This document shows, piece by piece, positions 287-48,778 of a stretch of DNA of 64,000 bases. The stretch covers positions 9,549-73,548 of the forward strand of contig CAMJOB010000001.1 in NCBI GenBank assembly GCA_946407495.1. The letters run 5' to 3'. This DNA comes from an uncultured Bacillota bacterium (lineage in GTDB: Bacteria; Bacillota_I; Bacilli_A; RF39; UBA660). Position numbers and translations under genes: made by a program. The notes beneath the pieces were generated by a model. It did not search any database. It was not told where the DNA came from and saw only the letters and a program-made list of their open reading frames with translations. Every line of letters starts with the position of its first letter. The first letter of the stretch is position 1.

Positions 287-528
287 AATTATTTCAAATT
301 ATATAATACCAATCATCTCTTTTCTTCTCATTATCTAAATCATATTTAATATAATTGCCATTCTGGAAGTATACACTCTAATTAGCATAGTCCCATTTAA
401 AATAACCAACGTAATTTGGTAATAAGGCTGTTTTTCCTGCTTTAATTAATTTTTCAATTTCGCTGTATTTCATAATTACGATAATAATACATATTTATTT
501 TAAAATAACAAAATTTAACATTTAAAAA

Positions 529-559
529 TTTGATTTTGAAATTTTAAGATATATATTTG
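529..559 (+). promoter_or_regulatory. Bacteroidetes-type promoter candidate (TTTG 529-532, 19-nt spacer, TATATTTG 552-559) upstream of gene 587
   Basis: match to TTTG-N19-21-TAnnTTTG consensus read directly in the AT-rich intergenic 287-586. Confidence 0.35.
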
Positions 560-586
560 ATTATAATTTAAAAATACAATTTATTT

Positions 587-982
587 ATGGACGTAGTTAG
601 TTTATTTAATTTGTTTTTTCCTGATTTCGATAATACAATCGAAAAAGACGGAAAGATTTACCGAGTAAAACTCGAAGAAATCGAAAAAGAAGACACAGTA
701 AACGTAGCTGATATTAAAAAAGATATTGATAGTTACGTTGAAGACATAGATGCAGAAATCTGGAATGATGCAACAGTTATTTTTTCAAGGAAATATAATA
801 TTGCTTATTTCGATAGATTGTTAAAGAAAGATGTTTTAACAAAAGAAGAATTTTCTCAACTTGTAAACGCATTTACTGCTCTTAAAGAGTGTGTAGCAAA
901 TGCAGCACAAGCAAGGATTAATTATTTAACCGACAAATATTTATCAAGTGATGCTTAGACAAAAGCTAAAGTTGAAGACTGA
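587..982 (+). CDS. acidic hypothetical protein; one in-frame TAG (956-958), stop TGA 980-982
   Basis: ORF 587..958 continues in frame through TAG to TGA; acidic, coiled-coil-like composition. Confidence 0.4.
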
Positions 983-1187
983 ATCACTGATTAATGATAT
1001 TAAGGAAGTTAAAAGAATTGCTTTAGAAAATAAATTAACAAATGAACAGTGGTTCATAGACTTTGAAGACCAACTTAATCAATTAAGTGGAATCGAAGTT
1101 ATTAATACCTGTATAGAGTTATTTCCTAAACTCACAGGTACAGCAGAAGAAAGATTAAACAAATGGATTCAATATAAAAACTATTGA
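948..1187 (+). CDS. hypothetical protein (79 aa), overlaps end of previous gene in another frame
   Basis: ORF track; TGA stop. Confidence 0.3.
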   Translation: MMLRQKLKLKTESLINDIKEVKRIALENKLTNEQWFIDFEDQLNQLSGIEVINTCIELFPKLTGTAEERLNKWIQYKNY

Positions 1188-1198
1188 ATCCTTAATAT

Positions 1199-1270
1199 TC
1201 CCTTATGGTGTAATGGTCAGCACAGGAGGCTCTAACCCTCTTAGTCTGCGTTCGAATCGTAGTAGGGGTA
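1199..1270 (+). tRNA. amber suppressor tRNA, anticodon CUA (reads UAG); short variable arm and mismatched 1:72 pair favour a Gln-type identity
   Basis: Manual cloverleaf: acceptor tccctta/taggggt (U1:U72 mismatch, A73), U8, D-stem gtgt/gcac with aatggtca loop (G18G19), anticodon stem ggagg/cctct, loop cTCTAac (U33, CUA, A37), 4-nt variable, T-stem ctgcg/cgtag with TTCGAAT loop; no encoded CCA. Confidence 0.8.
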
Positions 1271-1342
1271 CTTCTTCATACTTTTCACGTCACTAAGGTA
1301 TCGGATGACCTTATTGATTTTTACTGTTTTTAATCATGATAA

Positions 1343-1376
1343 AAGGCGGCTTCGTTGTGAAACGAGGTCGCCTTAA
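1343..1376. terminator. bidirectional rho-independent terminator between tRNA/+ genes and the minus-strand gene
   Basis: 12-bp stem aaggcggcttcg / cgaggtcgcctt (two G-U) with 8-nt loop, followed by aatttattat; also U-rich on the other strand. Confidence 0.55.
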
Positions 1377-1380
1377 TTTA

Positions 1381-2079
1381 TTATACATTTCTTGCAAATT
1401 TAAGTCTACTACCATAATTAGCATATCTTTTATCTGGACGTTCATAACCATCCATTACAACACGTGTTGCTTCTTCAATAGTTTTAGTCTTTTTAAGTTT
1501 TTCTAAAACCTTTGAATATCCATTATTTAATTCATGCCAAACATAATCTAATTGTTGTTTTTTAGATGGAGTATATGTTCCTGTAAAATTGCGAAGACCT
1601 ATTTGTCTATCTTTAGAAGTCCATTGTGCTAATCCATAACCTGTTATTCCATCTATTTTTAAACTACCTCTTTTACCACCTTGAATGATATTATGAATAC
1701 CACCTCCTGATTCGTGTAATAAATTACCAACTAAACCGCGTGCTTGATTATATGTTAGTCCTTTATTAACAAAATAATTAACCATATCATTATTTGAAAA
1801 TTTTTCCTCAACAGATGATTCTCGATTAACTATTTCATTTGGTAAAAACCTATCAAAATAATTAAAGCCTTCGTATTTAGAAATAGGATTATTTTCTTCT
1901 GGTTCTTGAAAAGGATTTTCAGTATTTTGATAACTTTTAAGTTTTAAATTATCTAAATTTAAATTAGGAGAAGATTCCATTAAAGTTGCTTCATTTATTG
2001 GAATATTCTCATATGGCATATTATATTCACCAGCTTCAACAGGATTATAATATACAAAAGGAACATCATTAACATTCAT
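1381..2079 (-). CDS. lysozyme-like peptidoglycan hydrolase domain protein (phage tail-lysozyme-like HESGG / GLAQWT motifs); no TAG codons
   Basis: ORF 232 aa; C-terminal half has GNLLHESGGG...GYGLAQWTSKDR motif block reminiscent of phage tail lysozyme family; only convincing minus-strand gene in window. Confidence 0.45.
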   Translation of the reverse strand: MNVNDVPFVYYNPVEAGEYNMPYENIPINEATLMESSPNLNLDNLKLKSYQNTENPFQEPEENNPISKYEGFNYFDRFLPNEIVNRESSVEEKFSNNDMVNYFVNKGLTYNQARGLVGNLLHESGGGIHNIIQGGKRGSLKIDGITGYGLAQWTSKDRQIGLRNFTGTYTPSKKQQLDYVWHELNNGYSKVLEKLKKTKTIEEATRVVMDGYERPDKRYANYGSRLKFARNV

Positions 2080-2164
2080 AATTTATAATTTTTATTTTTA
2101 ATTTTACTTTTTTACTTGTAGAATGATTCTAATTTGTATTTTAATTTTTATTAAACATTTTTAG

Positions 2165-2210
2165 TTTGATTTTTACAAAAATAAACATATCTTTGAATAT
2201 TACAAAATAT
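2165..2210. promoter_or_regulatory. divergent promoter region: + strand TTTG(2165-2168)-N19-TATCTTTG(2188-2195) and minus strand CAAAaaTA(2176-2183)/CAAA(2203-2206)
   Basis: both orientations of the TTTG / TAnnTTTG motif pair seen in the 2080-2258 intergenic between divergent genes. Confidence 0.3.
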
Positions 2211-2258
2211 TTATAAAATTAAAAATTATTTTAATAAACGTGATAATGTAAATGTTAT

Positions 2259-5158: not shown

Positions 5159-5159
5159 T

Positions 5160-7714: not shown

Positions 7715-10117
7715 ATGAGTGAAATTAAATATAATAAAGATGGAAGTATTGCTAAGAAAAGAGGACGTCCTAAAAAGTAGAAACCTGAAATTCCAATAGA
7801 ACTTCCACAAGAAGTACAAGATATAATTAAAAAGGCTACTGAAGAAGTTCCAAAAATTACTGAAGTTCAAGAAGATCCATTAGCTAAAGTAAAAGAAGCT
7901 GTAAGAGATTCTTTTAATGGATGGGATGTTCCTAAAGAAGAACGTATTACACGTTTTGATAAAAGACTTTCTTATGAACTTACTGGATATAAACCAATTA
8001 CTGCAACTAAAAGTTTAGACTTTAGACCAGAATGGTTTACAGAAGCCAGAGATACCTTTTTAAGAACAGGTAAATATTGTAGTTATCCATTTCGTTCTAA
8101 AGCATACGATGACTTTTGGCATGAAGAATATGTAAGATGTAGAGATGGATATACTGTAAATGGTTATACACTTACAGGACCAAACTATTATTATCTTAAC
8201 TATTATCAATTACCTAATATTGATGTAGAGAAAGCGGGTAGTGGACGTTTAGCTGTATTTCCAAAATTCTTAGTATTTCAATATGAGTTCTTTCATTATT
8301 TTGAAATATGTAGAATACTTAAAAAAGATGTATGTTTGATGAAAGCTCGTGGAGTAGGATTTAGTGAGATTAACGCTGCCATTTGTGCTTGTATTTATAA
8401 TTGCTTTAGAGAAAGTAACTGTATGATAACAGCACAACTTAAAAACTATCTTGATAAATCATTAGATAAAGCATGGAACGCTTTATCTTTTACAAACGAT
8501 AATACAAGTGGTGGTATGTTCAAACTTACACAAGTGCATAACACTCAATATTATAAAAAATCATCTTGGTACAAAAAAGAAAACGGACAAGATATTGAAA
8601 CAGGTTGGAAATCACAAATCGTAGGAATTGTAGCAGATACTGATGCTAAGATTCGTGGTGATCGTGTTGACTTACTTGTTTATGAAGAGGCTGGATCAAA
8701 TACAGCTTTACGAAAATCTTATATTAAGGGTAAAGCCTTAATATATATTGGTGGTAAAAAGTTCGGAATAAGAATGTGTGGTGGTACAGGAGGAGACCGC
8801 GGTATTGCACTTGCAGACCTTGCAGATATGTATAATGATCCTGAGTCTTTTGATGTATTACCATTTTATCACAATTATACACCGTCTGGAGATTGGATTG
8901 AAACTGCTTATTTCATTCCTTCTTATATTGGAGCTGTAACAGAATACGGAGAAGATGCTGATGGTGTTAAAAGAAGACTTCTTGATGAAAGAGGTTATTG
9001 TTTTTGGGAAAATTACAAAGAACAATTAGATTACGATAGATCCAAAATTAAAAATCCTAAAGCATTAATTGAACATTGCGCAGAGTATTGTTATACTGCT
9101 GATGAAGCCTTTGCACTTGAGGGTGAAAATAAATTTAATAAAGTTTTATTAACAGAACAATTAATGCGTATTCGTGTTTTAAAACAAGCACCTAAATTTG
9201 ATTATGGTGTACTTAAATTTAAATACGAGTCTGGAAAACAACATACAAGTGAAAACGTAAGAGGTGTAACTTGGCAATCTACCGCTAAAGGTCCAGGAAC
9301 AATCAAGATTCTTGAGCATCCTTTATGGGAATGTCAACCTAAGAAAGATGAATCTGGAATGATAATCTGGAATCCACCTGATAAACAAGCTAATTTATAT
9401 GTAGCTGGTTGTGACGGTATTGACTTAGGTAAACAAGATACATCTGAATATACAAAAGACCCTTCTGATTTTTGTCTTGTTATTTATAAAAGACAATTTG
9501 GATTAAGTGATCCACAGATTGTTGCTATTTATAAAGATAGACCACAAGACATAAGAGAAGCACATGAAACCGCAGTTAAATTAGCAATGTATTATAATTG
9601 TTTAATTAACATAGAGGCTTCACGTATATCGTTAGTCGGATATTGTAGAGACCGTGGATGGTTAAATTATTTAATGAAACGTCCAAGTATGTGTTTTTCT
9701 GATGTTACAAGAAAACATAGAGCAGGTTTACAATATGGTGTTCCTGCTACTGTAGCAAACATTGACCACCATACCGATTTAACAAGAGATTTCATAAATG
9801 ACTATTCACAAGGTATTTGGTTTGAAGAGTTCTTAGTAGAAGCTACCAAATATAGTGATGAAGAAAAACGTAAATTCGATATTATTGCTGCTACAGGTAT
9901 GGCACTTATGGGTAATGAAGAATTAGGTTCATTAGTTCCTAAAACAGTTGCACCTGTAGAAGTAAGACATCAAGATATTGGATATTATACAGATGATAGA
10001 GGAATTAAACGATTTGGTGTTATTCCAGATAAATACGCTGTTAAACTTAAAATAACACCTCCAACTAAAACATATGGATATGGAAGACAAACTAACCCAA
10101 GATATAGAGACTATTAA
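7715..10117 (+). CDS. terL: terminase large subunit (TerL); one TAG at codon 22 (7778-7780)
   Basis: Walker-A-like KARGVGFS, ATPase core DRVDLLVYEEAGS, C-terminal RNaseH-like nuclease region (YVAGCDGIDLG); frame 2 continuous from ATG 7715 into ORF 8336..10117. Confidence 0.85.
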
Positions 10118-10361
10118 ACAAGAAGTTATTGATATAGTTGAAGAATTATATGAATGTAAATTTATAGGTAAATTAAAAGTTACAGCATTAGATCCTGTTG
10201 GATATTCTGTAGCAATTGATTTATTATAGGGTGAAGATCCCATATTTATCACTGCAGAATTTCCTCATGATAAATTCTTAAAATTCTTATGTGAAGAATT
10301 AAGAATGAGAACTTTAGATAGAGTACAATTATTTGGTTTATATAAAGTATTTCCTAAATGA
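10074..10361 (+). CDS. small hypothetical protein (95 aa) overlapping TerL 3' end in another frame; one TAG (10227); TGA overlaps portal ATG
   Basis: frame 0 ORF from ATG 10074 through TAG to TGA 10359-10361; acidic helix-rich. Confidence 0.3.
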
Positions 10362-12553
10362 CTGCTGAAGACGAAAGATTAATAGAATTAACAAACAGAA
10401 CGATTTCTGATTTAGTATACGAAAAGACGGAACTTCAGAAAGCGTATAACATATATAATGGAAAACGCGACAAAGAGTAGTATAAGTATCTTGAAGATAA
10501 TTTCGGAATAGGTACACCTACCTCTGTCGAGTTTACTCCATTAGTAAGAAAGCACGTTGATGCTATGGTAGGTGAGTTTTTAGGAACTCCTATATTACCA
10601 AAAATTACGTGTAAAGATAAAGAAACAATAAGTAATATACAACGTGAAAAGCAACTTAAAATAAATGCTGAAATTGTAGATTATTTAAAGCATCATTTAC
10701 AAAATTAGATTTTAAGATTTATTACAGGAAAAGCAATGGATGATACTTCTGTTAAAAATAAACTTCAACAAATTGTAGAAGATTTAGATGAAGATTTTAT
10801 TTCTGAATATGAAGTTGCTGCTTAGAATGTAATACAATATATTTTACAAAGTAGAAGAACTGATTTATTAACTAAATTAAAGTTAATTTTACTTGATTTA
10901 TTTATATCAGGATATACTTTTTATAGAGCTAAACCTTCTACTGCAAAAACTAATGTTGAAGTAGAAGTTTTAGATCCAAGAAATACATTTATTGATAGAA
11001 ATCCAGAATCTCCTTATGTAAAAGATTCATATAGAGCTGTAGTTAGAAAATGGTTGAGTAGACCAGAAATATTAGCTCGTTATGGAAAAGATTTATCAAA
11101 AGAAGATGTTGATAAATTAAGAGAAGAATTTGAAGGATTAGATCAAGGTGGAAGTTTTTATAGAAGAAGTCTCGAAGGTGTTCCTTCTCCAATGTCAGAA
11201 GGAATACAAGCAAGATTTGAAGGAACAATAGGTCTTGATGCTGAAAGTAATGCAAATTATAGACTAATTCCTGTATATGAAGTAGAATGGATAGAAACCG
11301 ATGAAAATTTTGTAATGCAGAGATATGAAACAATTCGTATTGGAGATAACCAATCAGAAGATAGTTTCTTTATCTTAAAAGGAAAGAATGAAAATGTAGT
11401 TCGTTCTAAAGATGATCCTGCATTTTGTACATTATCAATAAATGGTTTATACTTTTTAAATAGAAACGATGAACCTTATTCTTTAGTTTTAGCTTGCGCG
11501 CATCTTCAAGACAAATATGATATACTTCACTTTTTCAGAGATAATCTTATTGCAAATAGTGGCACTGTTGGTGATTGGATCGATGTCTCGCTTATTCCAA
11601 CATATTTAGGACCAGAACCAACAGAAAGACTGCTTAAATGGATCAGTTACAAAAAATCAGGAATAGGATTAATTGATACAGCTCAAGAAGGTAGAATTGC
11701 TTCAGGACAAGCTCCACTTAATCAAACTTTTAGTGGCTTTGATGATACTATTAAAGCTCAAGCAATTCAATCTATACAATTAGCAATAGAAGATGTTGAA
11801 AATAACTGCTCTTCTATTACAGGTGTATTTAGAGAAAGACTTCAAGGTATAGAACAACGTGATGCTGTTACTAATATTAAACAAGGTGTTCAAAACTCGT
11901 TTATTGTAACTAAGCAATGGTTCCATCAAATGGATACTATTACTGCAGAATTATTAATTGATTCTTTAAATGTTGCTAAAGTTGTTTATAAAAAAGGACT
12001 TACAGGAACAATTATTCTTGGTGATAAAAGACAGAAAATATTTACTGCTTTACCAGAATATTTCACAGTAACTGATTATGATATAAGTGTTGTTACAAGT
12101 TCTGAATTAATTCAAGACTTGGAACAAATAAAAGCAGTAGTTCCAGAATTTATTAAATCTGGACAATTACCTGCTGATATATTATTTGAAATTATAACTT
12201 GTAAGAGTCCATCTGATATTAAAATAAAAATCAGAAAAGCCTTAAAGAAACAAAAAGAAGAAAATAATACAATTCAGCAATTACAACAACAATTACAAGA
12301 AGCTCAACAACAATTACAACAATTACAAAATGAAAATTCTCAGCTTAAATCTAAGGTTGAAGCACTTAATGAAAAGAGACTTCAATTAGATGCTCAGAAA
12401 ATTCAACTTGATAATAAAGTTAATATGTTTAAAGCTCAAACTGATAGAGATTACAAAACAATTGAAGCACAAGTTGATCAAGATAAAGTTAAGATAGAAC
12501 AGGCTCAATTATACGATAATAATCCATATAATGATAAAATTAGAATGTCATGA
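10358..12553 (+). CDS. portal protein (call by size, position after TerL and C-terminal coiled coil); 3 TAG codons
   Basis: frame 2 continuous from ATG 10358 through TAG 10475, 10706, 10823 into ORF 11054..12553; 731 aa. Confidence 0.55.
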
Positions 12554-15500
12554 ATAAAAAGTTATCAAGTTTCGAAAGTATATCTACCTCAGAAATAAAT
12601 GATAGTTCAGTTTATGTATCTGCTGTTTAGAAATTAAAAGATGGTAGTTATAAAAATATTAATATTCCTATTTCTCAACTTTCTGGTTTATGGAATAACG
12701 ATGTTCAACTGGCTATTGCTAATGCAGATTTTGAGGGAGGTGCAATTGATGCTGAAGTAATTCATCAGGCTGCTTTATAGGCAGTAGATGCTGCATTAAC
12801 AGAAGCAAGACAGGCTGTTAATGCAGCTATCGCTGCTGCAAATGATTTTGCAGGAGATGTTGCTACAGGTAATACAGCAACATAGAAAGCAATTGCTGAT
12901 GCTCAACAGCAATTAAATCAAGCTATTCAAGATGGACAATCTGTAGTAGCTTAGATGCAAACTATGTATGCACAATATTTTGGAGATAATGGTGAAGTGC
13001 GTCAAGCATTAAACGAAGCAAATAGAGATTTAAATACATCTAGAGCACTTTTAACTTCAGCACAAGAAGATTTACAAGCATTAGCAAATGGTGAAATTAC
13101 TCCAGAAAGTTTACATGAAATCGAAAGAACTGTAAACGGAATTAAAGAAATGTGGGGAATTGAAGGTACTTATGTTAATTCAGAAGGTACTGTTGCAAAT
13201 AAAGTGTTAGAATATGTAGACATGGCATTAGCACAAAAGAATTTAAAAATGACTAACATTAATGGTGAAACTAATAATGTTACATCATTTGAACAACTTG
13301 TTGATGCTGCTAATGGAATGTACACAACTACATTAAATAGAATGAATACTGCTGAACAAAAAGTTACTCAAATGCAAGAAGAGTGGGATGTAACAAAAGG
13401 TGAAATGTCAGAATATGTAAAAACTTCTGACTTTAGCGATCCTACTAAAGCATCACTTAAATCAGCAGTAAAATCAATGACTGATAGTTTAATTAAACAA
13501 ACAGTTAGAGATACAACTTTAGATGTAATCACAACAATAACTATTCCTATTAACTCACCTCAAGGTTATACAGTGAGAGTTCCAAATATTGAAAAAGAAA
13601 CTTTCTATTATATGTCTTGGGATGATGCAGAAGGTGATAATGCAATTCCTTTAAATTATCAATTTAAAGTAGTTGCAAGTGGTAATGCTGTCCCATCTGC
13701 AGATAATAATAGTTGGAGTCCTTTAACTTTAGATGGAGTTAATTCTCCTACTGTTGTAGCCTATGACAATGAAAATGTTATTCCAGATACTAATGATAGA
13801 TATTTATTCATTCAGTATAATGGATTAGGACCAGCAACTAAACAAATTGATGTAAAAGTATGTATTGAAAAATACTTATCACAAACACAAATATAGCAAA
13901 CAGCTAATGCTATTGTTTTATCTGCAATTAATAGTTTAAAAGAAGGAGGACAATTAGCATCTAGTTTAACTCTTACAGACGACCAAATTAGTACAGCTGT
14001 AAGAAGATATTTTAATAGTATTAATTTCAATGCAACTAGCATAAAACAAACTGCCGATCTTATTCAACAAACAGTATTAAGTTTCTTAGACGAAGGAAAC
14101 AACAATTATAGAACATTACAATCTGTAATTAAATCTGCTAAAGATTCTATTGAACAATCTGTTGAAGATTATACTTTAACTTTATTAGAAGAATTTAAAA
14201 ATAGTGCTCCTAATACTGACCATAAAATAAATACTGATTATAGTATTGATAATAGTGGTTCAAGTATCACATTTAAAAATAGAAGAAGAATTATTTCAAA
14301 TCTTGAACAAGGACATACATATTTTATAAAATGCGTTGCTTTATCAAAAATTTATTATAAGTACGGAACTTATAATTTTGCAAATGTAAACGTAGATGTT
14401 GCTTTCCTTGAAAATGAAAATAACGGATGGACTAAAGTTGTAACTCCAGATTCTATTAAAGTAGATGTTCCTAGTGATGCATCTTGGAGTACAATTACAT
14501 TCTTCATAGAATGTGCAAAGAATAATGCTAATCCACCTCAGTATTTAGCAAATAATGATTTTTCTGTTCAAGTATTTGAAACTGCAACATCAAAAGCTGC
14601 TAATTTCAAAATTACTCCTGAAATGATTAAAGAAACCATTAGTGGTGATACAGGAGCTGATGGAATTATCCATTAGATTTATCAAAGACTTGCTCGTCCA
14701 AGTGGAACTTCAACAACATGGGGAGAAGTAGGTGGTGGATTCTTAAATCAAGCACAAGTTGATGAGAGTGCAGAAGAAATATGTAGAACATTAATGGGAA
14801 TGAGTACAGGAGATGCTTCTACTGATCCTATTGTTAGATCAAGTGAGTTAAAACAATCTTTAGATGAAATAAAATCAGATGTAAGTAAAATTCAGTATTT
14901 AGCTCTTAAAAACGAAGGAGATGATGCTCTTTCATCTGAATATTTCGGAATAAGTAATAAATCTGGATTTAATTATTTAAATGGTATATCACAATATTAG
15001 AAAGGTCCAGAATTTGATATAACTCCAAATGCAGATGCTTTTGGATATTTTAAAATAAAGGTTCCTTATCCAAATACAGACTATACTCTTCTTTTAGTTG
15101 ATTTAGATAAATATAATTTTGGAGAAGTTCACTTTGTAAATGCTGAAACTCTTAATAGCATTACAGAAAATAACTTCAAACAAGATAAATCACATACATC
15201 TTGTGTTTATACACCTGATACTAATTATCCAACTAAAAATAAATTAAATCCATTACATTTTGAAAGTGTAACAACAGGATATTTATCATTTAAAATAATT
15301 AGAGCTGCTGGCAATAACAATACTTTAAATGCTACTTATTTTTAGAACAATCCTGTTCATGTAAAATTAGGTATTCCTACAGATGTTGCTGTTAGTAACA
15401 TTAAACAAACAGCGGATTCTATAACAGAACAAGTAAGTAGTTTAGAAGAAACATGGGGTCCAAATGGAGAAAAAGCTCAATCATTAAATACAGCTTTATA

Positions 15501-18054
15501 GAGTATTACACCAAATGCTATAGAGTCTGTAGTAGCAGAAGAGATTGATGGTAAATTAACTGGTTACTCTACAATAGAACAAACTAAAGATTTTATTGCT
15601 TCTACTGTTGGTGCAGCTGGTGCAGTAACTAATAAATTCCATGATCCTTTATTTAAACATGATTATAGTTATTGGCATAGAAGATATAGTAATTATCCAA
15701 ATTATTCTAATATTGCAAATATAGTTAGTCCAGCTGCTAACGTATATAATAAATATTATGATAATAACAATAATTATTATCAAATAAACTCTTCAAATAT
15801 ATTAGAAAAAGATCTTAAATCATTTATAATATATGATAATAATACTTTAAATATTAACGGTTTAAGTGCTGAAGATAGAAGACATATTTATGGATTATAT
15901 ACAAATTTAAAAGTAATATCTGGTAATAAGTATACAGCATCATTTTATATTAAATTACCTGCAGTTTTTAGTTCAGGATATACATCACTTATCGATGTTC
16001 CTAATTCAAATAACAAATTTAGATGTTCTTTCCAAAATCTTATGTTAAATGTAGGATTTGTAGATGAATTAGCAAAATTAACTCCTAATTTTTATATTAC
16101 TCTTCTTTCTACAGAAAATTCTCTTGAAGATATAGAAAATACAGAATATACTATTGTTGATGGAGAAGAAGTTGAAAATTGGAGTTCAGAAACTCTTTAT
16201 AATACTCAACATAAAAAAGCATATAAGTTTAATAATCAAGGAAATTTAACAGGAAATGGATTTAATAATGGATCAGTTGATCTTGATCAATTTGGATTAT
16301 GGATTAAATTCGGATAGGGTAATTTATTAAATTATTTAAATAAAGCATTTACTATAAGTCTTGGAGATGTTGATAATTCTGGTATAAATATAGAATAGAA
16401 TATAAGATATAGATGGTTTAAAATATGGTTTACATTTACTGCTGATAATAAGCATATTGTTAAAAATTCCGATACTTCATTAACAAATATTGTGGATGAT
16501 CGTGATAGAGCATTTTGTTTTGAACCTTGGACTAATATTTATTCAAATAAATATTCAAGAATATTCTGTGAATTTGCTGCTCCTATGTTAAATTCTGGAA
16601 CTACACCTTTAAAGTTTAGTTCTCAAGAAAAATCTGATGAAGTTTATAGTGTAATTAGTCAAACTAAAAATGCAATTGATTTATCTATAAATAATGTTAG
16701 ACAAGGATTAGAAAAAGTAGGAATAACAATAGATGCTGAACATCCAGAAAAAAGTAAAATAAAACTTAATGCAGATGTATTAGAAGCTGATTTAGCTGAA
16801 GCTACATTTACAGGAAATATTAAAGCAAAAAGTTTTGAAGTACAACCAGAAGGTAGTGATAGTTCTATTTCATTAGTTATTTATAATCCAGACGATACTA
16901 GTTTTGTTCATAAATATATAACTGATCACAATACAACTTTAAAAATAAGTGCGGGAACTCCTGTTTTAGTTTCAACTGTAGGTGAGGATGTATATTTAAT
17001 AAACTTAACTAAGATTAATAAAAATGGAGACATTACATATTATTTTAAAATACGAACAGATATTCCTATTACAATAAAAAATATAGGATATTCTGAAGAA
17101 TCTGGAAGTACTATATCTACATTTAAAATTAAACCAGTAAAATACTTTTTAGATAATGTTTATAATATATATTTAGAGAAATATGTAGCAGAATCAATTG
17201 TAGATACTTAGAATAACACAATAACACTTGGTAATGTTACTTCAAATTCTTTCTATAATAGTCTTAATTGTAGTGGTTTTACTTTTAAGTATTCTACAAA
17301 TGAAGGTGATAAGTCATTAACTTTTGACGGTAATGATAAACCATATATAAAATCTACAGGAGTTTTAAAATACAAATCTATAAATTTAAAACAAGTTGCA
17401 CAAAACATTAGAGATATTAATTATTTTTCTATTAATAGTCCTGTATTTTCATTAGATTATTCAAGGGGCGGCGATATTTATGATATGCCAATATACAGAC
17501 ATAATTTTAGTCAACCAGGTAATTCTGCTTATGATTCAGCTGGAAATCTTCATGTTACAAATGAAGGTTCATTAAGAATGTTTAAAGTATATAAAAACAT
17601 AAATAGTTCAGGAACATTAATTGATTTAACTCACTTTGAAAATAATAAGCGTTCTGATGATAAATATTGTTATGCTATAGAATCTAAAGATCGAACAACA
17701 GGAGAGATTTTCTATCAAATCTTAGGATTTTATAATATTACAACTTATTTTGGAGATCTTACAAATAATAATCGTTATTATGGTGATATTTATGATGTTG
17801 AACAAGGTGATGGTTCAAAATGTTTTTCAATAGCAGAAAATATAATTAATAATTGTTTTGTAATAGGATGTTTTATTAGTAAAAATCTTAATGAAAATAC
17901 ATTAACTGATAATAATAATAGCTATAGAGTATTTTTCAATGAAGATGAATGTACTAGACTTAATGACAGATTATCACGTGGTTATGCAGGAGCAATAGGA
18001 AAAGCTAATAATTCTTGGAATAGTAAAAAAATTATAGTAGATAAGTACAATTAA
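12550..18054 (+). CDS. giant virion-associated protein (1834 aa) read through 12 TAG codons; function unknown (head/tail fibre or decoration-like)
   Basis: single frame (frame 1) with no TAA/TGA for 5.5 kb; joins ORF fragments 12955, 14794, 16042, 16492, 17485; ATG overlaps portal TGA (ATGA). Confidence 0.55.
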
Positions 18055-30396: not shown

Positions 30397-30810
30397 ATGT
30401 TTAAAACATTTGATTTTTCACATTTGTAGGCAGAATCCGGTTGGATTGTTATAATATATATAGCAGTACTTATTGCAATGATTTTGGATTTCATTACTGG
30501 AGTTCATAAAGCAAGTTTAAGAGGAGAAGCTACTACAAGTCGTGGATTTAGACGTACAGCAGAAAAAGCATAGCAATATTTTTTACCTATGATATGTTTA
30601 ACTGCAATTGATGTTATTGCATCAAATTTTTTAGATTATCCGTATTTAACGGCTGTCATAGGTGCTTTTAATATTTATATTGAACTACGTTCTATTTGGG
30701 AAAATACACATAGCGTAGAAGAAACTAAAAAGCAACAACAGCAAGCAGCTCAATTAATAGATTTTATTGAAAAGAATCGTAAAGAATTAAAATTTATATT
30801 AGACAAATGA
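30397..30810 (+). CDS. holin, phage_holin_4_1 (toxin-secretion/phage-lysis holin) family; TAG at codons 11 and 51
   Basis: GWIVIIYIAVLIAMILDFITGVHKASLRGEATTSRGFRRTAEK pattern; TM segments; immediately upstream of endolysin. Confidence 0.65.
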
Positions 30811-32679: not shown

Positions 32680-34098
32680 ATGTTAATAGCAGAATTTGTA
32701 ACAAATAAACAAAACATGAGTGAAACACGTACCTACGAAGATTTCTATACTTTCCTTGGTACTAATCCTCATAGAATGGGAGTTATCTCTCGTATGTATC
32801 CACACTTAACAGCTACTTATCTTCTTGAATCACTTAAGAATATTTTCTATCAAGACGTTAAGGGTGCTGAGAAACATCAGTCAATTAATTCAATGTTCTT
32901 CGAGTGGGAAATTGAATCTAATCAAATTAAGAGAATACCTTTCGCAGCTGAACCAATTGGTGATGGTAAAGGTGGATCTGAAATTCAAATGTTCTTTACA
33001 GAACGTTACTACGAACAGAATGATATTTTCAAGGTTGATGAAACCTTCCAGCAATTCTTCGTTGTAACAGAACCTACACGTACTCGTGATAATTACTGGT
33101 GTTATATTGTTCGTCTTATCGACGAAGACTATAAGGGTGAACTTGATCGTTCTGGTACTTATGTTGGTGCTACTACACGTTTCCAATCTAACGCATTCCC
33201 AGAACTATCTGAAAAAGGTTTCACAAAGTATCAGTCAAATATCGCTCGTATGCGTAACTATATGACAACTTTCCGTAATGATATTGATTATTCTTCACTT
33301 TATGCAGCACACGAAGAAAACTTCATTAAGATTTCTAAGGGTGAGGGTAACGGAAAGCTTTCTGAAACCATCTATAAGATGGATAAAGCTAAGAAGGTTC
33401 TTCTTGAGAACCACATGTATGCTAAGAACTCTGGTTATTTATTTAACCGTTCTAACATCGATAAGAATGGTCGTCCTACTATCGTAGATGCACAAGGTCG
33501 TCCTGTTTATATCGGTGCTGGTATAATTCCACAAATTGAGAAGTTTGCATCTAAATATGTTTATAGTAAGTTCACAATTAACGTACTTCGTACTGTTATT
33601 GCTGAAATGAATGATAAGGCTGATTCTCCAACAGGAAACAACTATATGTTCATTGTTTCTGAACCACTTTGGAATCAAATGCAGGGTGTTCTTTCAGCAC
33701 ATCTTGCTGCTTTCCAAACAGATGGAACTTATCTATATTCTAAGGCTGCTAACGATTACGTAAAAGTTGGTGCTACATTCAATTCTTACGAGTTCGGTGG
33801 AAATAAGATTACATTCAAAGTTGATCGTACATTAACTCGTGAATACGGTAGTGAAAAGGGATTCGGTGTATGTATTGACTTAACAGCTGATAAGACAAGT
33901 AACGCTCCTGCTCTTGGTCTATTCACATTTAAGGGTGGTGAGTTCATTCAAGGTACACTTGAAGGTCTTGGAGGACTTGATGGACTTTCTTCAGGTAAGA
34001 TTTCTTCTCCTGTAGCTGGTTCTAAACTTGCTGTAATGAGTTACGGTGGTGTTGCAGTATTTAATCCTTACAAGAGTTACATTATTACACAGGCATAA
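32680..34098 (+). CDS. major capsid protein candidate (472 aa)
   Basis: size, position after scaffold, and marked shift to highly-expressed codon usage (cgt, ggt, ctt, gct) relative to neighbours; hairpin after stop. Confidence 0.55.
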   Translation: MLIAEFVTNKQNMSETRTYEDFYTFLGTNPHRMGVISRMYPHLTATYLLESLKNIFYQDVKGAEKHQSINSMFFEWEIESNQIKRIPFAAEPIGDGKGGSEIQMFFTERYYEQNDIFKVDETFQQFFVVTEPTRTRDNYWCYIVRLIDEDYKGELDRSGTYVGATTRFQSNAFPELSEKGFTKYQSNIARMRNYMTTFRNDIDYSSLYAAHEENFIKISKGEGNGKLSETIYKMDKAKKVLLENHMYAKNSGYLFNRSNIDKNGRPTIVDAQGRPVYIGAGIIPQIEKFASKYVYSKFTINVLRTVIAEMNDKADSPTGNNYMFIVSEPLWNQMQGVLSAHLAAFQTDGTYLYSKAANDYVKVGATFNSYEFGGNKITFKVDRTLTREYGSEKGFGVCIDLTADKTSNAPALGLFTFKGGEFIQGTLEGLGGLDGLSSGKISSPVAGSKLAVMSYGGVAVFNPYKSYIITQA

Positions 34099-42900: not shown

Positions 42901-43507
42901 AATTAGGGATAAACAAAGAAGTGATTTAGAAAATACTCTTAAAACATTAGGTATTCCAGTAAATAATATCAAATTTAAATCAGAAACTAATCTTTCTGAA
43001 TATTTAGAGATAAATGATTCTGTTACTTTTAGTACACAAGTTGATAATGTTGTTAGAGAAGGATTAGCATTAAAATCATTCGATAAAAATATTTTAGTTA
43101 AAACTTGTCAAGGTTTGGTTTATACTTTACCTAAAACTAAATCTTTAAATGAATCACATATTTATGGAATTAAGAATAATTCTGAGTATACTGATTTATC
43201 AGCAATCCATTTAAGTAATTATGATGATTATTATAAGATTTTAAATAACTTATCTTATAATGAGCAAAACGGAGTAATTAATTATTCTGGATATTTATCT
43301 GAAAATGGAAATAACAATCTAAGTCCTTCTTATATAGATATATTAAAATTAGATGAAGATAAAACATTAGTAATAGACCTTGATAAATATAGACGTATTG
43401 CAAACAGAAGTTGGGATATTAACAACTGTGGTCGATACAGTGTAACTAGAATACAAGGAATATCTAGTAAGTTCTCATTCTCTAAATTATTAAATGTATT
43501 ACGCTAA
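39926..43507 (+). CDS. large tail-associated structural protein (1193 aa); single TAG at codon 3
   Basis: ATG 39926 overlaps upstream TGA (ATGA); atg aat TAG gca...; continuous with ORF 39965..43507. Confidence 0.5.
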
Positions 43508-46500
43508 TGAATTATAAATAGATATTAAATGAACCATTAAATTTTAAATTCCAAGCTAAGACTTTACCTACTAAGGGAGTCTTAGCATGGGAATATAATC
43601 CATTTAGAAATTATAGACTTACTAAATGTAATAAATTTAAATATAATGATAAATATTATACTCTTGAAGAAATAGAAGATATTCTATCTATAACTATTGG
43701 TGGTGATACTAATCTTAAACCAGAATTTGGATATAATAGAACTAGACATAATGTAGAAAATACCGATCCTCAAAAATGGTATACTTGTGAATTATCGGAA
43801 GATAAAAATCATACTACATTATTAAATGAAGTTCAAGATGTTCTTGATATTGAGTTATATGAAAAAGGACAATTAGTAGATTTTGAAACGGATGAATTAG
43901 AATTTGATTTAAAACATCCTGTTGATATAATCGCTCAAGAGTCTTATGATAATTCAGTAAATCTTATAATTAATGATGGAAAGAATATACCTAGATTAAT
44001 TAATTCTCGTTTTTCTCCTACTGAAAAGAATCATTATCAAATAGTAGATAGAAAAGGAGATAATGATACAAACATATATGATTAGGGAGATCAATTTGAT
44101 ATTGATACTTCTCTTTATAAACGTACTATTAAAATACCAAAACTAAAATTTGATGGTGTTTACCCTGGTGGTAACTTAGGAGTTGGAAACTATCATTTCT
44201 TTTTTAAATATATTGATTCTGATGGTAATGAAACAGATTGGATTGCAGAATCTGGTTTAGTTTCAGTATTCTTAGGTAATACTCCACAAAGTATTGATAG
44301 TGGTTTTGGAAATTAGAATAGTAAAAAATTAATTAAATTTACTTTAACTAATATTGATTCTGCTTATAATTATGTAAAAGTTTATTATAGTAAAGAAACT
44401 TCTGGATTTAATCAAGAAGCACAAACAACTTGTTATGAAATTGAACATAAATATATAGTAGATAAAAACAATACTTGTAATATAACAATATCTGGATTTA
44501 TTAAGGATATTGAAGTTTCAGAAGATGTAATTAATATGCAATATCAACTTGTATCATCTGTTGAAACACAAACAGTTTGTAAAAATATGTTATTTTTAGG
44601 TAACGTTAAAAAACCAGAAATTCCATATAAAGAACTTACTGATTTATCTTTAAGATTTTTACCAAAACGTTCACTTATTGATTATAATTTAAGTATTGAT
44701 TCTCAATATAATATCAATAGTAGTTCAGAAGGATATTATGATCCTGAATACATATATAATTATACAGGTTATTGGAATGATGAAATATATAGACTTGGAA
44801 TAGTTTATATTCTTCCTGATAATTCATTATCTCCAGTATTTAATATAAGAGGTGGATATAATATTGATGAAAATTCAAAATATTCATATGAACCTCTTTA
44901 TAAAAATGGAGTTAGAAATTATTTAACAATATCAGAAGATAATTATTCTATAATTTCGTCTAATAAGAATCCTATTAAGTTAGAAAATGCTAAAGGTGTT
45001 ATAACCTTAAAGACATATGATTCAAATAAAGGACCAAATGAAGAACAGCCTTATAAAATATATGGTATTAAAATAGAAATAGATAAACTACAAAAAGAAG
45101 AAGTTTTAAACGAACTTAAAAAATATACTAAAGGATTTTTCTTTGTAAGACAAAAAAGAATCCCTACAACATTATGTCAAGCTATATCTATTGCAACTGA
45201 TAAGCATAACTATTTACCTGTATTTCCAATTGGAAATAAGAAATCGTTATTTGTTAGTCAACTAACAGGTGTTTCTTACACTCAACCTAAAGAAACAAAA
45301 CTTAGTATATTTAAACAATTAACTGATGTTGGAACTGAAATTATAGATCCATACACAGGAACTACAAAACGTATTGCAGGTTCAGATAAAAACTTGGCTG
45401 AAGTTAGTTTAAAAGAAAATACAGAATATTATCTTGCTGAGTCATTTATTGATTCAAGAGATAGATATATAACAAATGATTTCTTTAGTAGAATTAGACC
45501 TATAGAATCATCTAAAGTAAAAGTTAATGCTGCGCTATGTCCAGAATTTGAACTTGATTAGACATTCTATGCTAATTTATTTACAGGTGACCAATTTGTA
45601 TTAAAGAAATCAGATATGCAACCACAAGGTTCAAGTCTATCTTGGAGTCAAGATGAAGAACGTAATTTCTATGTAGGAAAATACGTATATGCTAATGATA
45701 CAGTAGAATATAAATCTAAAATATTAGCTGTTCCAGATAGTTCTAAATTAATGGCTATTGATAAAGATAATTATAAAGGAACTGCTGGTAATTCAACAGA
45801 TGGTTGGAGATTTGATTATATAGCAAAAGAAAACAAAAAGACAGAAGCAACAAACTTTATTAGAGGTAATTGGGGACCATATTTAGGTGTTCAAAGTGCT
45901 ACTAAAAATAAAGTTTTAACACAATATGATATTAAAATTCCTGGATATAGTAAAAGTAAAATTCAAGAATACTTTAATGTTAGATATAGTGATAATTCTT
46001 CATTCTATCCTATTTCAGATAGATTAGAAATAAATGATTTTGGAGACAATTTTGTTTTATATAGAGGTGACTGTTACATATGTCAATTTACACATAGAAT
46101 GAACCGTAATTTCCAAGATCCAGCTGCACCTACTAATGATGATATTGTAAATCCTAAATGTTGGAAAGAAAACTATTCTGTTAAAGACGGAGTAATTGAA
46201 AAACATAAGTTTGCTAATATTAACATTGGTGATTTAAATGCAGTAAGATTAGGAACATGGGTTACATTTACAGTACGTTCTACTAAGAATTTATGTATAC
46301 GTGGTGTAGATGATAGTCATTCTGATGAAAAAGCATTAATAGGACACGGTCGTGGTTTTTATCCTCGTTATAAAATAAACTTAGATGGTTCTTATAAAAC
46401 ACCAGAATCTTCATACTTTAATAAAGGATTTCAAAAGGAATTTGGTGTTAAAAAATACATAGAAGCTGCTGATGTACCTGCAGAAAAGAATGAATTTTCA

Positions 46501-48777: not shown

Positions 48778-48778
48778 T

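What the first reader, a model, noticed from the sequence alone, without database searches (positions are those of the whole stretch)
1199..1270. Phage-encoded amber suppressor tRNA (anticodon CUA)
A 72-nt sequence folds into a canonical cloverleaf: 7-bp acceptor stem, U8, G18G19, TTCGAAT T-loop. The anticodon loop is cUCUAac, so the anticodon is CUA, which pairs with UAG. The short (4-nt) variable arm excludes Ser/Leu/Tyr-type bacterial tRNAs. The unpaired 1:72 position (U:U) resembles the weak first pair of Gln tRNAs. This is the likely agent that decodes the in-frame TAGs.
Basis: seen in the sequence. Interest (0 to 1): 0.75.

Follow-up and report, generated by a model that had tools for sequence, protein, structure and literature searches.

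The report
Phage amber-suppressor tRNA reading TAG as glutamine
This is a real, working-looking tRNA gene in a crAss-like gut phage that reads the stop codon TAG as glutamine, so the phage's virion and lysis genes can be translated; this kind of tRNA is already well documented for this phage group.

Summary
ARAGORN and Rfam both call a 72-nt tRNA at 1199-1270 (+) with anticodon CUA (52.4 bits, E=2e-8). It is the only tRNA in the window.

The interpretation also holds. The window (29% GC) is the structural and lysis module of a divergent crAss-like phage. It carries the large terminase (TerL), portal, Crass_capsid, CrAss_Ring_1, crAss_MUZ and a holin.
- 25 of 42 tiled ORFs carry in-frame TAGs (65 in all). 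None needs TAG as a stop.
- In codon-level alignments with related phage contigs, window TAGs face CAA/CAG in 22 of 35 sense cases, against a 3.7% background (p~3e-23). The reverse comparison gives 38 of 72 (p~8e-34).
- 25 distinct homologous CUA tRNAs keep the cloverleaf, with compensatory changes in 10 of 21 pairs. U1 is invariant and 1:72 is always weak or unpaired.
- RefSeq crAss genomes (cr60_1, cr53_1, cr7_1, cr124_1) carry 87-94% identical copies annotated tRNA-Gln.

The system is published (Yutin 2021; Borges 2021; Peters 2022), so it is already known and interest is low.

Side observations:
- A position-locked hairpin lies 2-8 nt upstream of solo tRNAs in these phages.
- The tRNA tree disagrees with the TerL tree.
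- Sister lineages instead use TGA with a UCA tRNA.

The parts
1199..1270 (+). Amber-suppressor tRNA, 72 nt, class I. U1.U72 mismatch, discriminator A73 at 1270, no encoded CCA.
   Evidence: ARAGORN; Rfam RF00005 at 52.4 bits, E=2e-8; family covariation; 87-94% identical to the RefSeq 'tRNA-Gln' of cr60_1, cr53_1, cr7_1 and cr124_1.
1232..1234 (+). Anticodon CTA (CUA), flanked by U33 and A37 in the loop C-U-C-U-A-A-C.
   Evidence: Columns 32-37 are invariant in 25 distinct homologues.
1165..1191 (+). Leader hairpin: 10-bp stem, 7-nt loop TAAAAAC. It ends 7 nt before tRNA position 1 and overlaps the TGA stop (1185-1187) of ORF 948-1187. Its role is inferred: attenuator/terminator, or a 3'-end stabiliser of the upstream mRNA after RNase P cleavage.
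   Evidence: Terminator-like site. A hairpin of at least 6 bp ending 2-8 nt before +1 is present at 34 of 39 solo CUA tRNAs and 29 of 48 other solo tRNAs, against 20% of random positions. Stem sequences differ between lineages.
1343..1374 (+). Strong terminator-like hairpin (14 pairs, 7 G-C) 73 nt downstream of the tRNA, between the tRNA and the convergent lysozyme-like gene.
   Evidence: The same GGCGGCTTCGTTGTGAAAC... sequence follows the tRNA in relative L012.
587..1187 (+). Two small co-oriented ORFs (587-958/982 and 948-1187) that form a short + strand unit ending in the tRNA. The first has a TAG at 956-958, which is either its stop or a sense codon 8 codons before a TGA.
   Evidence: The same genes are called in contigs of the same phage.
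7715..10117 (+). Large terminase subunit (TerL), one in-frame TAG (codon 22). A client of the suppressor.
   Evidence: phrog_6681, 1.2e-72; TAG list.
10358..12553 (+). Portal protein with three in-frame TAGs (10478-10480, 10706-10708, 10823-10825). All three face CAA/CAG in the TGA-using relatives L014-L016.
   Evidence: phrog_6547; codon alignments.
12550..18054 (+). 1834-aa virion-module ORF with 12 in-frame TAGs. It is open only if TAG is sense.
   Evidence: It aligns over 1848 columns with L012; five of its TAGs face CAA.
30397..30810 (+). Holin (Phage_holin_4_1) with two in-frame TAGs, followed by a TAG-free M15 endolysin at 30807-31223.
   Evidence: L142 7717-8130 is the same 137-aa product, PF05105.
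43507..51466 (+). Two large tail/muzzle-module ORFs: 43507-48777 (crAss_MUZ, 5 TAGs) and 48779-51466 (8 TAGs).
32680..34098 (+). Major capsid protein (Crass_capsid), TAG-free. It shows that TAG use is gene-specific and not uniform.

Best explanation
The 72-nt gene at 1199-1270 encodes a functional, phage-borne amber-suppressor tRNA of the glutamine type.

Proposed mechanism:
1. It is transcribed as the last element of a short + strand unit: two small ORFs, a leader hairpin, the tRNA, then a strong terminator.
2. RNase P matures the 5' end (U at -1). The host CCA-adding enzyme finishes the 3' end, because no CCA is encoded.
3. The host glutaminylation machinery, most likely GlnRS, charges it with glutamine. 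The basis would be U35, C34, G10 and the unpaired U1.U72 end.
4. On the ribosome, anticodon CUA pairs with UAG and competes with host release factor 1.
5. The 65 in-frame TAGs in 25 virion, packaging and lysis genes of this crAss-like phage are therefore read as Gln (genetic code 15). TAA and TGA remain the stops.
6. Full-length terminase, portal, tail proteins and holin can only be made once the tRNA has accumulated, so the tRNA couples late-gene expression and lysis to its own expression.

Shown here: tRNA structure and anticodon, conservation with covariation, TAG in frame in essential genes, and TAG equivalent to Gln codons.

Inferred: charging by the host enzyme, competition with RF1, and timing.
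For: - tRNA calls: ARAGORN and Rfam at 52.4 bits.
- Family conservation: 94 of 103 viral-contig matches to the tRNA body with a free anticodon carry CTA. There are 30 distinct CUA tRNA sequences.
- Cloverleaf covariation: 97.1% paired, 10 of 21 pairs with double changes, 0 of 500 shuffles, and slid controls at 43-57% paired. The anticodon loop is invariant.
- TAG is sense: coverage by ORFs of at least 100 aa rises from 0.67-0.86 to 0.93-1.0 in several 4-kb bins when TAG is read through. 25 of 42 ORFs have TAGs. Stops are TAA 30 and TGA 11.
- TAG means Gln: of 41 well-aligned window TAG positions, relatives show Gln 22, TAG 15, Asn 4, Ser 3, Glu 2, others 4. That is 63% Gln among sense codons, against a 3.7% background (p=3e-23). 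Relatives' TAGs face window Gln at 38 of 72 unique positions, against 4.0% (p=8e-34).
- All three portal TAGs face CAA/CAG in the clade that does not use TAG.
- Homologous tRNAs (87-94% identical) in RefSeq Suoliviridae genomes are annotated tRNA-Gln and have anticodon CTA.
- U1 is invariant and 1:72 is U.U, U.G or U:A in all 25 distinct sequences.
[quoted passage not shown] Metaproteomics confirmed Gln at TAG in a 191-kb and a 94-kb crAss-like phage (PMC9523058). Host GlnRS is proposed to charge such suppressors (bioRxiv 10.1101/2021.08.26.457843).
Against: - No direct evidence of expression, aminoacylation or the inserted amino acid for this phage.
- The tRNA lacks several elements of the E. 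coli GlnRS identity set (named from established knowledge, not tested with the real host). It has C2:G71 and C3:G70 instead of G2:C71 and G3:C70, A73 instead of G73, C38 instead of U38, and A36.
- By overall body similarity, the nearest non-CUA tRNAs in my biased sample were Glu(UUC) 77%, Arg(UCU) 75% and Gln(UUG) 72%, which is not decisive.
- A scan of 185,579 species genomes for a YUG tRNA with the same D-arm found no convincing host tRNA-Gln. It found only 19 hits, mostly eukaryote-like tRNA arrays in MAG contigs.
- About a third of aligned sense codons opposite TAG are not Gln (Asn, Ser, Glu, Lys). Ordinary divergence explains this, but it does not exclude some ambiguity.
- No release-factor or aaRS gene was seen in the window, so how competition with RF1 is won is unknown.
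Confidence: 0.9

Rival explanations
1. The tRNA is a functional amber suppressor but inserts an amino acid other than glutamine (for example Glu, Ser, Asn, Lys, Trp or Tyr), or decodes ambiguously.
For: - The body is about as similar to phage tRNA-Glu(UUC) (77%) and tRNA-Arg(UCU) (75%) as to tRNA-Gln(UUG) (72%).
- Several E. coli GlnRS identity elements are absent (read).
- 13 of 35 sense codons opposite window TAGs are not Gln: Asn 4, Ser 3, Glu 2, others 4.
- Some related ~160-170-kb contigs carry a second CUA tRNA with a long variable arm next to the Gln-like one.
Against: - Gln is enriched about 17-fold over background in both directions. No other residue exceeds 11%.
- TAG and CAG differ by one transition. 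CAA/CAG face every portal TAG in the clade that does not use TAG.
- Proteomics on crAss-like phages found Gln at TAG (PMC9523058).
- The 4-nt variable loop excludes bacterial Ser, Leu and Tyr architecture.
Confidence: 0.06
2. The main role of the tRNA is offensive, with decoding of phage genes secondary. It would cause read-through of host TAG stop codons to cripple host proteins, including defence proteins. Yutin et al. suggested this as an anti-defence strategy.
For: - The idea is stated in PMC7886860.
- Suppressors are sometimes present in phages with no detectable recoding ('pre-emergent' suppressors).
- The tRNA body is nearly identical across very distant crAss-like lineages: 93% to the cr60_1 type, where TerL is 27.6% identical. 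That fits a portable module.
Against: In this phage, 65 in-frame TAGs sit in essential genes (TerL, portal, tail, holin), so decoding the phage's own genes is obligatory. The two roles are not exclusive. Nothing here measures an effect on the host.
Confidence: 0.1
3. The tRNA is pyrrolysine tRNA, as ARAGORN labels it, or another non-canonical tRNA.
For: ARAGORN prints 'tRNA-Pyl' for the CUA anticodon.
Against: The tRNA has a canonical 8-nt D loop with G18G19, a 5-bp anticodon stem, a 4-nt variable loop and a UUCGAAU T loop. tRNA-Pyl is defined by the opposite features. No Pyl-system gene appeared in the PHROG scans, and TAG positions align with Gln.
Confidence: 0.005
4. The tRNA gene is a relic or bystander, and TAG read-through depends on a host-encoded or other unidentified factor.
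For: Published surveys find suppressor tRNAs in only about 40% of TAG-recoded phage genomes, so other routes may exist.
Against: - The gene is intact, scores as a full tRNA and evolves by compensatory substitutions. Examples are G2:C71 to C2:G71 against cr60_1, and U6:A67 to C6:G67 and G28:C42 to A28:U42 against L012.
- It is syntenic in the 88%-TerL relative L012.
- It is present in all three contigs of the same phage that were examined.
Confidence: 0.03

Closest known systems
Suppressor tRNA(CUA) of crAss-like phages (Crassvirales, Delta group / Suoliviridae: cr60_1 NC_055891, cr53_1 NC_055889, cr7_1 NC_055895, cr124_1 NC_055899), annotated tRNA-Gln; code-15 recoding described by Yutin et al. 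2021 (PMC7886860)
   Same: - The same tRNA family: 87-94% nucleotide identity, with the 8 nt before position 1 also matching cr60_1.
- Anticodon CUA, U1 with a weak 1:72 pair, A73, and the same D-arm and T-loop.
- It sits upstream of the terminase/portal structural block, behind a leader hairpin.
- TAG is in frame in late genes.
   Different: - The host genome is a much more divergent crAss-like phage. TerL is about 27% identical to Suoliviridae, and relatives and same-phage contigs are 128-181 kb, which is Zeta-group-like.
- The window tRNA has C2:G71 instead of G2:C71 and encodes no CCA, whereas most relatives encode CCA.
E. coli supE (glnV44) amber suppressor, tRNA-Gln(CUA)
   Same: It is a Gln-type tRNA whose anticodon is CUA instead of CUG. 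It reads UAG as Gln in competition with RF1 and is charged by the resident GlnRS despite A36. The weak first pair (U1:A72 in E. coli) is conceptually the same. This comparison rests on established knowledge and was not tested here.
   Different: - supE is a laboratory point mutant of a host tRNA with partial suppression. This one is a natural phage gene on which the phage proteome depends.
- The body sequence is unrelated to E. coli tRNA-Gln. The E. coli identity elements G2:C71, G3:C70, G73 and U38 are absent.
TAG-recoded Lak megaphages and other 'alternatively coded' gut phages (Borges et al., bioRxiv 10.1101/2021.08.26.457843; Peters et al. 2022, PMC9523058)
   Same: - The same logic: a low-GC phage of a standard-code Bacteroidota host, a phage-encoded CUA tRNA, TAG to Gln in structural and lysis genes, and a holin carrying recoded stops. 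The proposed role is timing late expression and lysis.
- Gln at TAG was confirmed by metaproteomics in a 191-kb and a 94-kb crAss-like phage.
   Different: No release factor 2 or aaRS gene was seen in this 64-kb window, whereas some Lak and Agate phages encode RF2. The phage lineage differs from Lak.
TGA-to-Trp recoding with tRNA(UCA) in sister crAss-like lineages
   Same: Relatives L014-L016 (TerL 41% identical) have the same gene order and use a phage suppressor tRNA for in-frame stops in TerL and portal.
   Different: A different stop codon (TGA), a different tRNA (anticodon UCA) and a different amino acid class. Their TGAs face window Trp x3, Tyr x4 and Phe x1.

Membership tests
Canonical class I elongator tRNA (Rfam RF00005) | Cloverleaf with 7/4/5/5-bp stems scoring above the family's gathering threshold | tested here: met
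   52.4 bits against a gathering score of 29, full-length match 1-71/71. ARAGORN also calls it. Only 1:72 is unpaired.
Canonical class I elongator tRNA (Rfam RF00005) | Conserved tertiary nucleotides: U8, G18G19, T54-Psi55-C56 (TTC), purine 37, U33; short variable loop | tested here: met
   Read: U8, GG in the D loop, UUCGAAU T loop, U33, A37, 4-nt variable loop UAGU.
Canonical class I elongator tRNA (Rfam RF00005) | Structure maintained by compensatory substitutions among homologues | tested here: met
   25 distinct sequences: 97.1% of cells paired, 10 of 21 pairs changed on both sides, 0 of 500 shuffles reach this, slid controls at most 57% paired.
Amber (UAG) suppressor tRNA | Anticodon 5'-CUA-3' at positions 34-36 | tested here: met
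   It is invariant in the family.
Amber (UAG) suppressor tRNA | In-frame UAG codons in genes that must be read through | tested here: met
   65 in-frame TAGs in 25 of 42 ORFs, including TerL, portal, holin and the muzzle protein. TAG positions lie inside conserved alignments.
Amber (UAG) suppressor tRNA | Demonstrated read-through in vivo or in vitro | not testable with these tools
   This needs proteomics or reporter assays. Relatives have metaproteomic support (PMC9523058).
Glutamine-accepting tRNA (tRNA-Gln type) | The decoded codon corresponds to Gln in homologous proteins | tested here: met
   22 of 35 (63%) against a 3.7% background, p=3e-23. The reverse comparison gives 38 of 72 against 4.0%, p=8e-34.
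Glutamine-accepting tRNA (tRNA-Gln type) | U1 with a weak or disrupted 1:72 pair | tested here: met
   U1.U72 in the window. Across 25 homologues U1 is invariant and 1:72 is U.U 10, U.G 8, U:A 7.
Glutamine-accepting tRNA (tRNA-Gln type) | E. coli GlnRS identity set: G2:C71, G3:C70, G10, G73, U35, G36, A37, U38 (from established knowledge) | tested here: not met
   Present: G10, U35, A37. Absent: C2:G71, C3:G70, A73, A36 (necessarily, since the anticodon is CUA) and C38. The relevant host is presumably Bacteroidales, not E. coli, and its identity set is not known to me.
Glutamine-accepting tRNA (tRNA-Gln type) | Close sequence similarity to a host or phage tRNA-Gln(YUG) | tested here: inconclusive
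   Nearest Gln(UUG) is 72%, while Glu(UUC) is 77% and Arg(UCU) 75%, in a sample biased by the search pattern. The genome scan found no host match. Database annotators call the 87-94% homologues tRNA-Gln.
Glutamine-accepting tRNA (tRNA-Gln type) | Aminoacylation with Gln (GlnRS, or GluRS plus GatCAB) | not testable with these tools
   Needs biochemistry.
tRNA-Pyl | Compact D loop without G18G19, 6-bp anticodon stem, 3-nt variable loop, no TTC T loop; pylS and pylBCD nearby | tested here: not met
   8-nt D loop with GG, 5-bp anticodon stem, 4-nt variable loop, UUCGAAU T loop. No Pyl genes appeared among the PHROG hits.
Code-15 (TAG to Gln) crAss-like phage | crAss-like virion gene set | tested here: met
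   Crass_capsid, CrAss_Ring_1 and crAss_MUZ on contigs with identical proteins. TerL hits only crAss-like phages.
Code-15 (TAG to Gln) crAss-like phage | Recoding confined to late genes, with early genes in the standard code | tested here: inconclusive
   The window is almost entirely the late module. In contigs of the same phage, the block to the left holds many small TAG-free ORFs but also a 553-aa ORF with 17-18 TAGs.

The most novel reading that the evidence does not exclude
The conserved hairpin that ends 2-8 nt before the 5' end of the suppressor tRNA is a dedicated control element. It is at window 1165-1191 and its stem sequence differs between lineages. It could act as an attenuator or terminator that gates when the tRNA is transcribed. 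It could instead act as a punctuation signal that couples RNase P release of the tRNA to stabilising the upstream mRNA. Either way it would set the timing of the switch from the standard code to code 15. The hairpin-tRNA cassette would also move laterally between distant crAss-like families: the window tRNA is 93% identical to the Suoliviridae type but only 69% identical to that of a closer TerL relative.
Probability: 0.2. Interest if true: 0.5.

Novelty: already known. Interest (0 to 1): 0.22.

Why it matters
For annotation, it matters a good deal. With the standard code, the virion and lysis genes of this phage break into fragments. With TAG read as Gln they form a continuous, interpretable module. 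For biology, this instance adds little to what Yutin 2021, Borges 2021 and Peters 2022 established: crAss-like phages carry CUA tRNAs and read TAG as Gln in late genes. Three modest additions may be worth a specialist's glance. First, the same tRNA family is shared almost unchanged between crAss-like lineages whose terminases are only ~27% identical, while a closer lineage has a clearly different CUA tRNA. Second, a position-locked leader hairpin precedes most stand-alone tRNAs in these phages. Third, the holin carries TAGs while the major capsid protein and the M15 endolysin do not, which fits the published lysis-timing idea.

Tried and rejected
1. Search for the host's tRNA-Gln. I scanned genome contigs for a YUG-anticodon tRNA with the same D-arm. 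It gave 19 hits. Most sit in dense tRNA arrays with eukaryote-type anticodons (AAG, ACG, AGG, AAT) on short MAG contigs and are probably contamination.
2. Isotype by body similarity. It was undecided between Glu, Arg and Gln, so I relied on codon alignments.
3. Single-sequence MFE folding. It gave a non-cloverleaf structure with z=-0.88, which is uninformative for tRNA. I used covariation instead.
4. PHROG annotation. Most ORFs had no family. Pfam marks from the look-up of encoding contigs were more useful.
5. Megablast of window 1-12000 against GenBank phages. Only the tRNA matches, so the phage itself has no close relative in that collection.
6. Sigma-70 promoter scan. Counts were not above the shuffles (23 against 18.7). 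The consensus probably does not apply to Bacteroidota or to the phage polymerase, so no promoter is assigned.
7. Literature search for a described hairpin-tRNA element in crAss phages. It returned only irrelevant papers.
8. Idea that near-C-terminal TAGs are residual stops. Rejected for 35029-36339 (codon 435) and 37543-38223 (codon 223), which face CAG and CAA in the relative. It remains undecided for 587-958/982.
9. Apparent oddity of TGA facing Tyr in L014-L016. Resolved: the eight positions are Trp x3, Tyr x4 and Phe x1, all aromatic, which is consistent with TGA read as Trp.
Full report
**1. The observation**

ARAGORN finds exactly one tRNA in the 64-kb window, at 1199-1271 (+), with anticodon cta at position 34. 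Its 'tRNA-Pyl' label only reflects the CUA anticodon. Rfam's tRNA model RF00005 matches 1199-1270 (+) end to end at 52.4 bits (gathering score 29), E=2.2e-8.

Reading the sequence against the Rfam alignment gives these features:
- Acceptor stem UCCCUUA/UAGGGGU, with six pairs and a U1.U72 mismatch.
- U8 and G10, a 4-bp D stem, and a D loop AAUGGUCA with G18G19.
- A 5-bp anticodon stem and the loop C-U-CUA-A-C. The anticodon is at 1232-1234.
- A 4-nt variable loop, a 5-bp T stem, the T loop UUCGAAU, and discriminator A at 1270.
- No encoded CCA.

A single-sequence MFE fold does not give the cloverleaf (z=-0.88), which is normal for tRNA genes and not informative.

**2. What the window is**

The window is 29% GC and almost all genes are on the + strand. 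PHROG scans identify:
- a large terminase (TerL), 7715-10117, phrog_6681, 1e-72;
- a portal, 10358-12553;
- a weak major-head match, 32680-34098;
- an M15 endolysin, 30807-31223;
- a lysozyme-like gene on the - strand, 1381-2079;
- an exonuclease interrupted by an intein-like insert, 2259-4172.

The exact capsid protein is found on at least 20 public contigs, one of them 181,348 bp long. The precomputed Pfam marks there are Crass_capsid, CrAss_Ring_1, crAss_MUZ, Phage_holin_4_1 and Peptidase_M15_3.

TerL hits only crAss-like phages. It is about 27% identical to Suoliviridae and 43% identical to two unannotated faecal scaffolds. IMG/VR relatives sit on contigs of 128-175 kb.

I did not place the phage in that group by phylogeny.

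**3. TAG is a sense codon**

- Treating TAG as sense raises coverage by long ORFs from 0.67-0.86 to 0.93-1.0 in several 4-kb bins.
- It gives a clean tiling of 42 ORFs. Of these, 25 contain 65 in-frame TAGs, and all complete ones end in TAA (30) or TGA (11). One ORF runs off the window end.
- The 1834-aa ORF 12550-18054 has 12 TAGs, 48779-51466 has 8, and the crAss_MUZ gene has 5.
- TerL has 1, the portal has 3 and the holin has 2.
- The capsid gene, ring protein and M15 endolysin have none.
- TAG (65) is nearly as frequent as CAG (89). CAA (720) dominates.

**4. Which amino acid**

I translated related contigs in six frames with TAG and TGA masked and aligned them to the window proteins. I then read the codons opposite each TAG where the local alignment was good.
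- Of 41 window TAG positions, relatives show Gln 22, TAG 15, Asn 4, Ser 3, Glu 2 and single others. That is 63% Gln among sense codons, against 3.7% Gln at ordinary aligned positions (binomial p=3e-23).
- In the other direction, 38 of 72 unique window positions that face a TAG in a relative are Gln, against 4.0% (p=8e-34).
- The three portal TAGs all face CAA/CAG in the L014-L016 clade, which does not use TAG as a sense codon.
- Two TAGs a few codons before the annotated stop also face CAG and CAA, so they are sense codons and not leftover stops.

This matches code 15. The result agrees with proteomics on two other crAss-like phages (PMC9523058).

**5. The tRNA family**

Megablast of window 1-12000 against GenBank phages hits nothing except the tRNA. 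It is 94% identical to cr60_1, 92% to cr53_1 and 87% to cr7_1 and cr124_1. All four are Crassvirales/Suoliviridae RefSeq genomes where the gene is annotated tRNA-Gln. ARAGORN gives anticodon CTA in all of them.

A viral-contig scan for the D-arm and anticodon stem with a free anticodon found 103 matches, 94 of them CTA. In all I collected 110 CUA tRNAs representing 30 distinct sequences.

On 25 distinct ~72-nt sequences, the cloverleaf is kept in 97.1% of cells and 10 of 21 pairs change on both sides. No shuffle of 500 reaches the observed values, and slid controls fall to 43-57% paired.
- Against cr60_1, the window tRNA shows a clean G2:C71 to C2:G71 flip.
- Against L012, it shows U6:A67 to C6:G67 and G28:C42 to A28:U42.
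- U1 is invariant, and 1:72 is U.U (10), U.G (8) or U:A (7).

A weak or open first pair with U1 is the classic tRNA-Gln trait (established knowledge).

Several E. coli GlnRS identity elements are missing (G2:C71, G3:C70, G73, U38). Body similarity does not separate Gln from Glu or Arg. I also could not find a host tRNA-Gln with this body. Gln identity therefore rests on the codon alignments and on published proteomics, not on the tRNA sequence itself. The features that would define tRNA-Pyl are absent.

**6. Local anatomy and likely expression**

The tRNA is the last element of a short + strand unit made of ORF 587-958/982 and ORF 948-1187.
- A 10-bp hairpin at 1165-1191 overlaps the stop codon of the second ORF and ends 7 nt before tRNA position 1.
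- A 14-bp terminator-like hairpin follows at 1343-1374, facing the end of the convergent lysozyme-like gene.
- The structural block starts at 2259.

In contigs of the same phage, the DNA to the left of the window is a block on the opposite strand. It holds many small TAG-free ORFs, tRNA-Lys(UUU) and possibly tRNA-Ala, and a 553-aa ORF with 17-18 TAGs. The tRNA therefore sits between two divergent sets of TAG-using genes.

Steps I infer but have not shown:
- RNase P matures the 5' end (U at -1).
- The host enzyme adds CCA.
- Host GlnRS charges the tRNA, as proposed by Borges et al..
- The tRNA competes with RF1, so full-length late proteins and the holin appear only after the tRNA accumulates.

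**7. Comparison with what is known**

This is the system described by Yutin et al. 2021. They report TAG to Gln or TGA to Trp in late genes of Beta, Delta and Zeta crAss-like phages, with suppressor tRNAs and switches between codes at short phylogenetic distances. Borges et al. describe the evolutionary route and the lysis-timing hypothesis. Peters et al. 2022 supply the proteomic proof.

My data reproduce the code switching. The 41%-TerL relatives L014-L016 carry a UCA tRNA and in-frame TGAs that face Trp x3, Tyr x4 and Phe x1 in the window. The finding is correct but already known.

**8. Things that may be new, all outside the finding proper**

(a) A leader hairpin is position-locked.
- A hairpin of at least 6 bp ending 2-8 nt before tRNA +1 is present at 34 of 39 distinct stand-alone CUA tRNAs and 29 of 48 other stand-alone tRNAs in these contigs. 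The figure for random positions is 20%.
- Stem sequences differ between lineages, and some close pairs show paired changes. One example is GTGGA/TCCAC against GTGTA/TACAC.
- Its role is unknown. It could be an attenuator, an RNase P punctuation or stability element, or a promoter element.

(b) The tRNA tree disagrees with the TerL tree.

| Compared with the window | tRNA identity | TerL identity |
|---|---|---|
| Suoliviridae (cr60_1) type | 93.1% | 27.6% |
| L012 | 88.9% | 88% |
| Clade B (L008, L013, L018) | 68-69% | 62% |

The pattern suggests lateral exchange or replacement of the suppressor.

(c) Some contigs of 161-170 kb carry a second 88-91-nt CUA tRNA with a long variable region directly after the Gln-like one.

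**9. Verdict**

The novelty class is 'already known' and interest is about 0.2.

Noticed in passing
window 1165-1191; also L002, L003, L005-L008, L012, L043-L054, L067, L073, L083, L091, L094, L100, L110, L128 just upstream of their tRNAs: A hairpin ends 2-8 nt before position 1 of the tRNA. It is present at 34 of 39 distinct stand-alone CUA tRNAs and 29 of 48 other stand-alone tRNAs, against 20% of random positions. Stem sequences differ between lineages, with some paired changes; loops often contain TAAAA(G)AA; there is no clear U-tract. It could be an attenuator, a 3'-end stabiliser after RNase P cleavage, or a promoter element.
   Followed up: partly
tRNA at window 1199-1270 compared with L001/L042 (cr60_1 type), L012, L008/L013/L018: The tRNA and the terminase (TerL) give different relationships. 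tRNA identity to the window is 93.1% for the Suoliviridae type (TerL 27.6%), 88.9% for L012 (TerL 88%) and 68-69% for clade B (TerL 62%). The 8 nt before position 1 also match cr60_1. This suggests lateral exchange or replacement of the suppressor gene among crAss-like lineages.
   Followed up: partly
L056 356-443 (-), L058 1066-1153 (+); also L041, L097, L099, L129: Some contigs, including three of 161-170 kb (L056, L058, L099), carry a second CUA tRNA of 88-91 nt directly after the Gln-like one. It has a ~20-nt variable region, U1:A72 and the same T arm (Rfam 57.7 bits). A class-II-like amber suppressor beside a class-I one raises the question of whether both insert the same amino acid.
   Followed up: partly
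L014 2648-2721 (+); L014-L016 TerL and portal genes: The 41%-TerL relatives carry a tRNA with anticodon UCA instead of CUA. They have in-frame TGAs in TerL and portal at eight positions, where the window has Trp x3, Tyr x4 and Phe x1. So a sister lineage uses TGA recoding, presumably to Trp.
   Followed up: yes
window 2259-4172 (+): The PD-(D/E)XK exonuclease gene is 637 aa here but 300 aa (PDDEXK_1) in other contigs of the same phage (L146-L148). The extra middle part matches the intein-containing regions of terminase and helicase-loader PHROGs. This looks like a strain-specific intein insertion.
   Followed up: partly
just left of the window start, - strand; L146 12198-13859 (+ in the locus): A 553-aa ORF of unknown function carries 17-18 in-frame TAGs, about 3% of its codons. 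Ten of them are clustered in a Gln-rich N-terminal stretch. It is by far the most TAG-dense gene seen. Further left lie many small TAG-free ORFs, tRNA-Lys(UUU) and a possible tRNA-Ala.
   Followed up: partly
window 30397-31223 and 32680-34098: TAG use is gene-specific. The holin has 2 TAGs in 137 codons. The adjacent M15 endolysin, the major capsid protein, the ring protein and several neighbouring genes have none. This fits the published idea that recoding gates lysis, and that highly expressed genes avoid the suppressed codon.
   Followed up: partly
window 956-958 (ORF 587-958/982): The first ORF of the tRNA's own transcription unit has a TAG 8 codons before a TGA, and the next ORF starts at 948/951. 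It is undecided whether this TAG acts as a stop (a standard-code 'early' gene) or as Gln.
   Followed up: no
window 1270-1273 compared with relatives (alignment A1): Most homologous phage tRNAs encode the 3' CCA, but the window tRNA (ACTT) and L012 (ACAA) do not. These two depend on the host CCA-adding enzyme.
   Followed up: no
L022, L023, L025, L033 and others (genome-contig hits): Short contigs in bacterial MAGs from many phyla carry dense tRNA arrays with eukaryote-type anticodons (AAG, ACG, AGG, AAT) and a eukaryote-like tRNA-Gln D-arm. They look like eukaryotic contamination of the MAGs.
   Followed up: no
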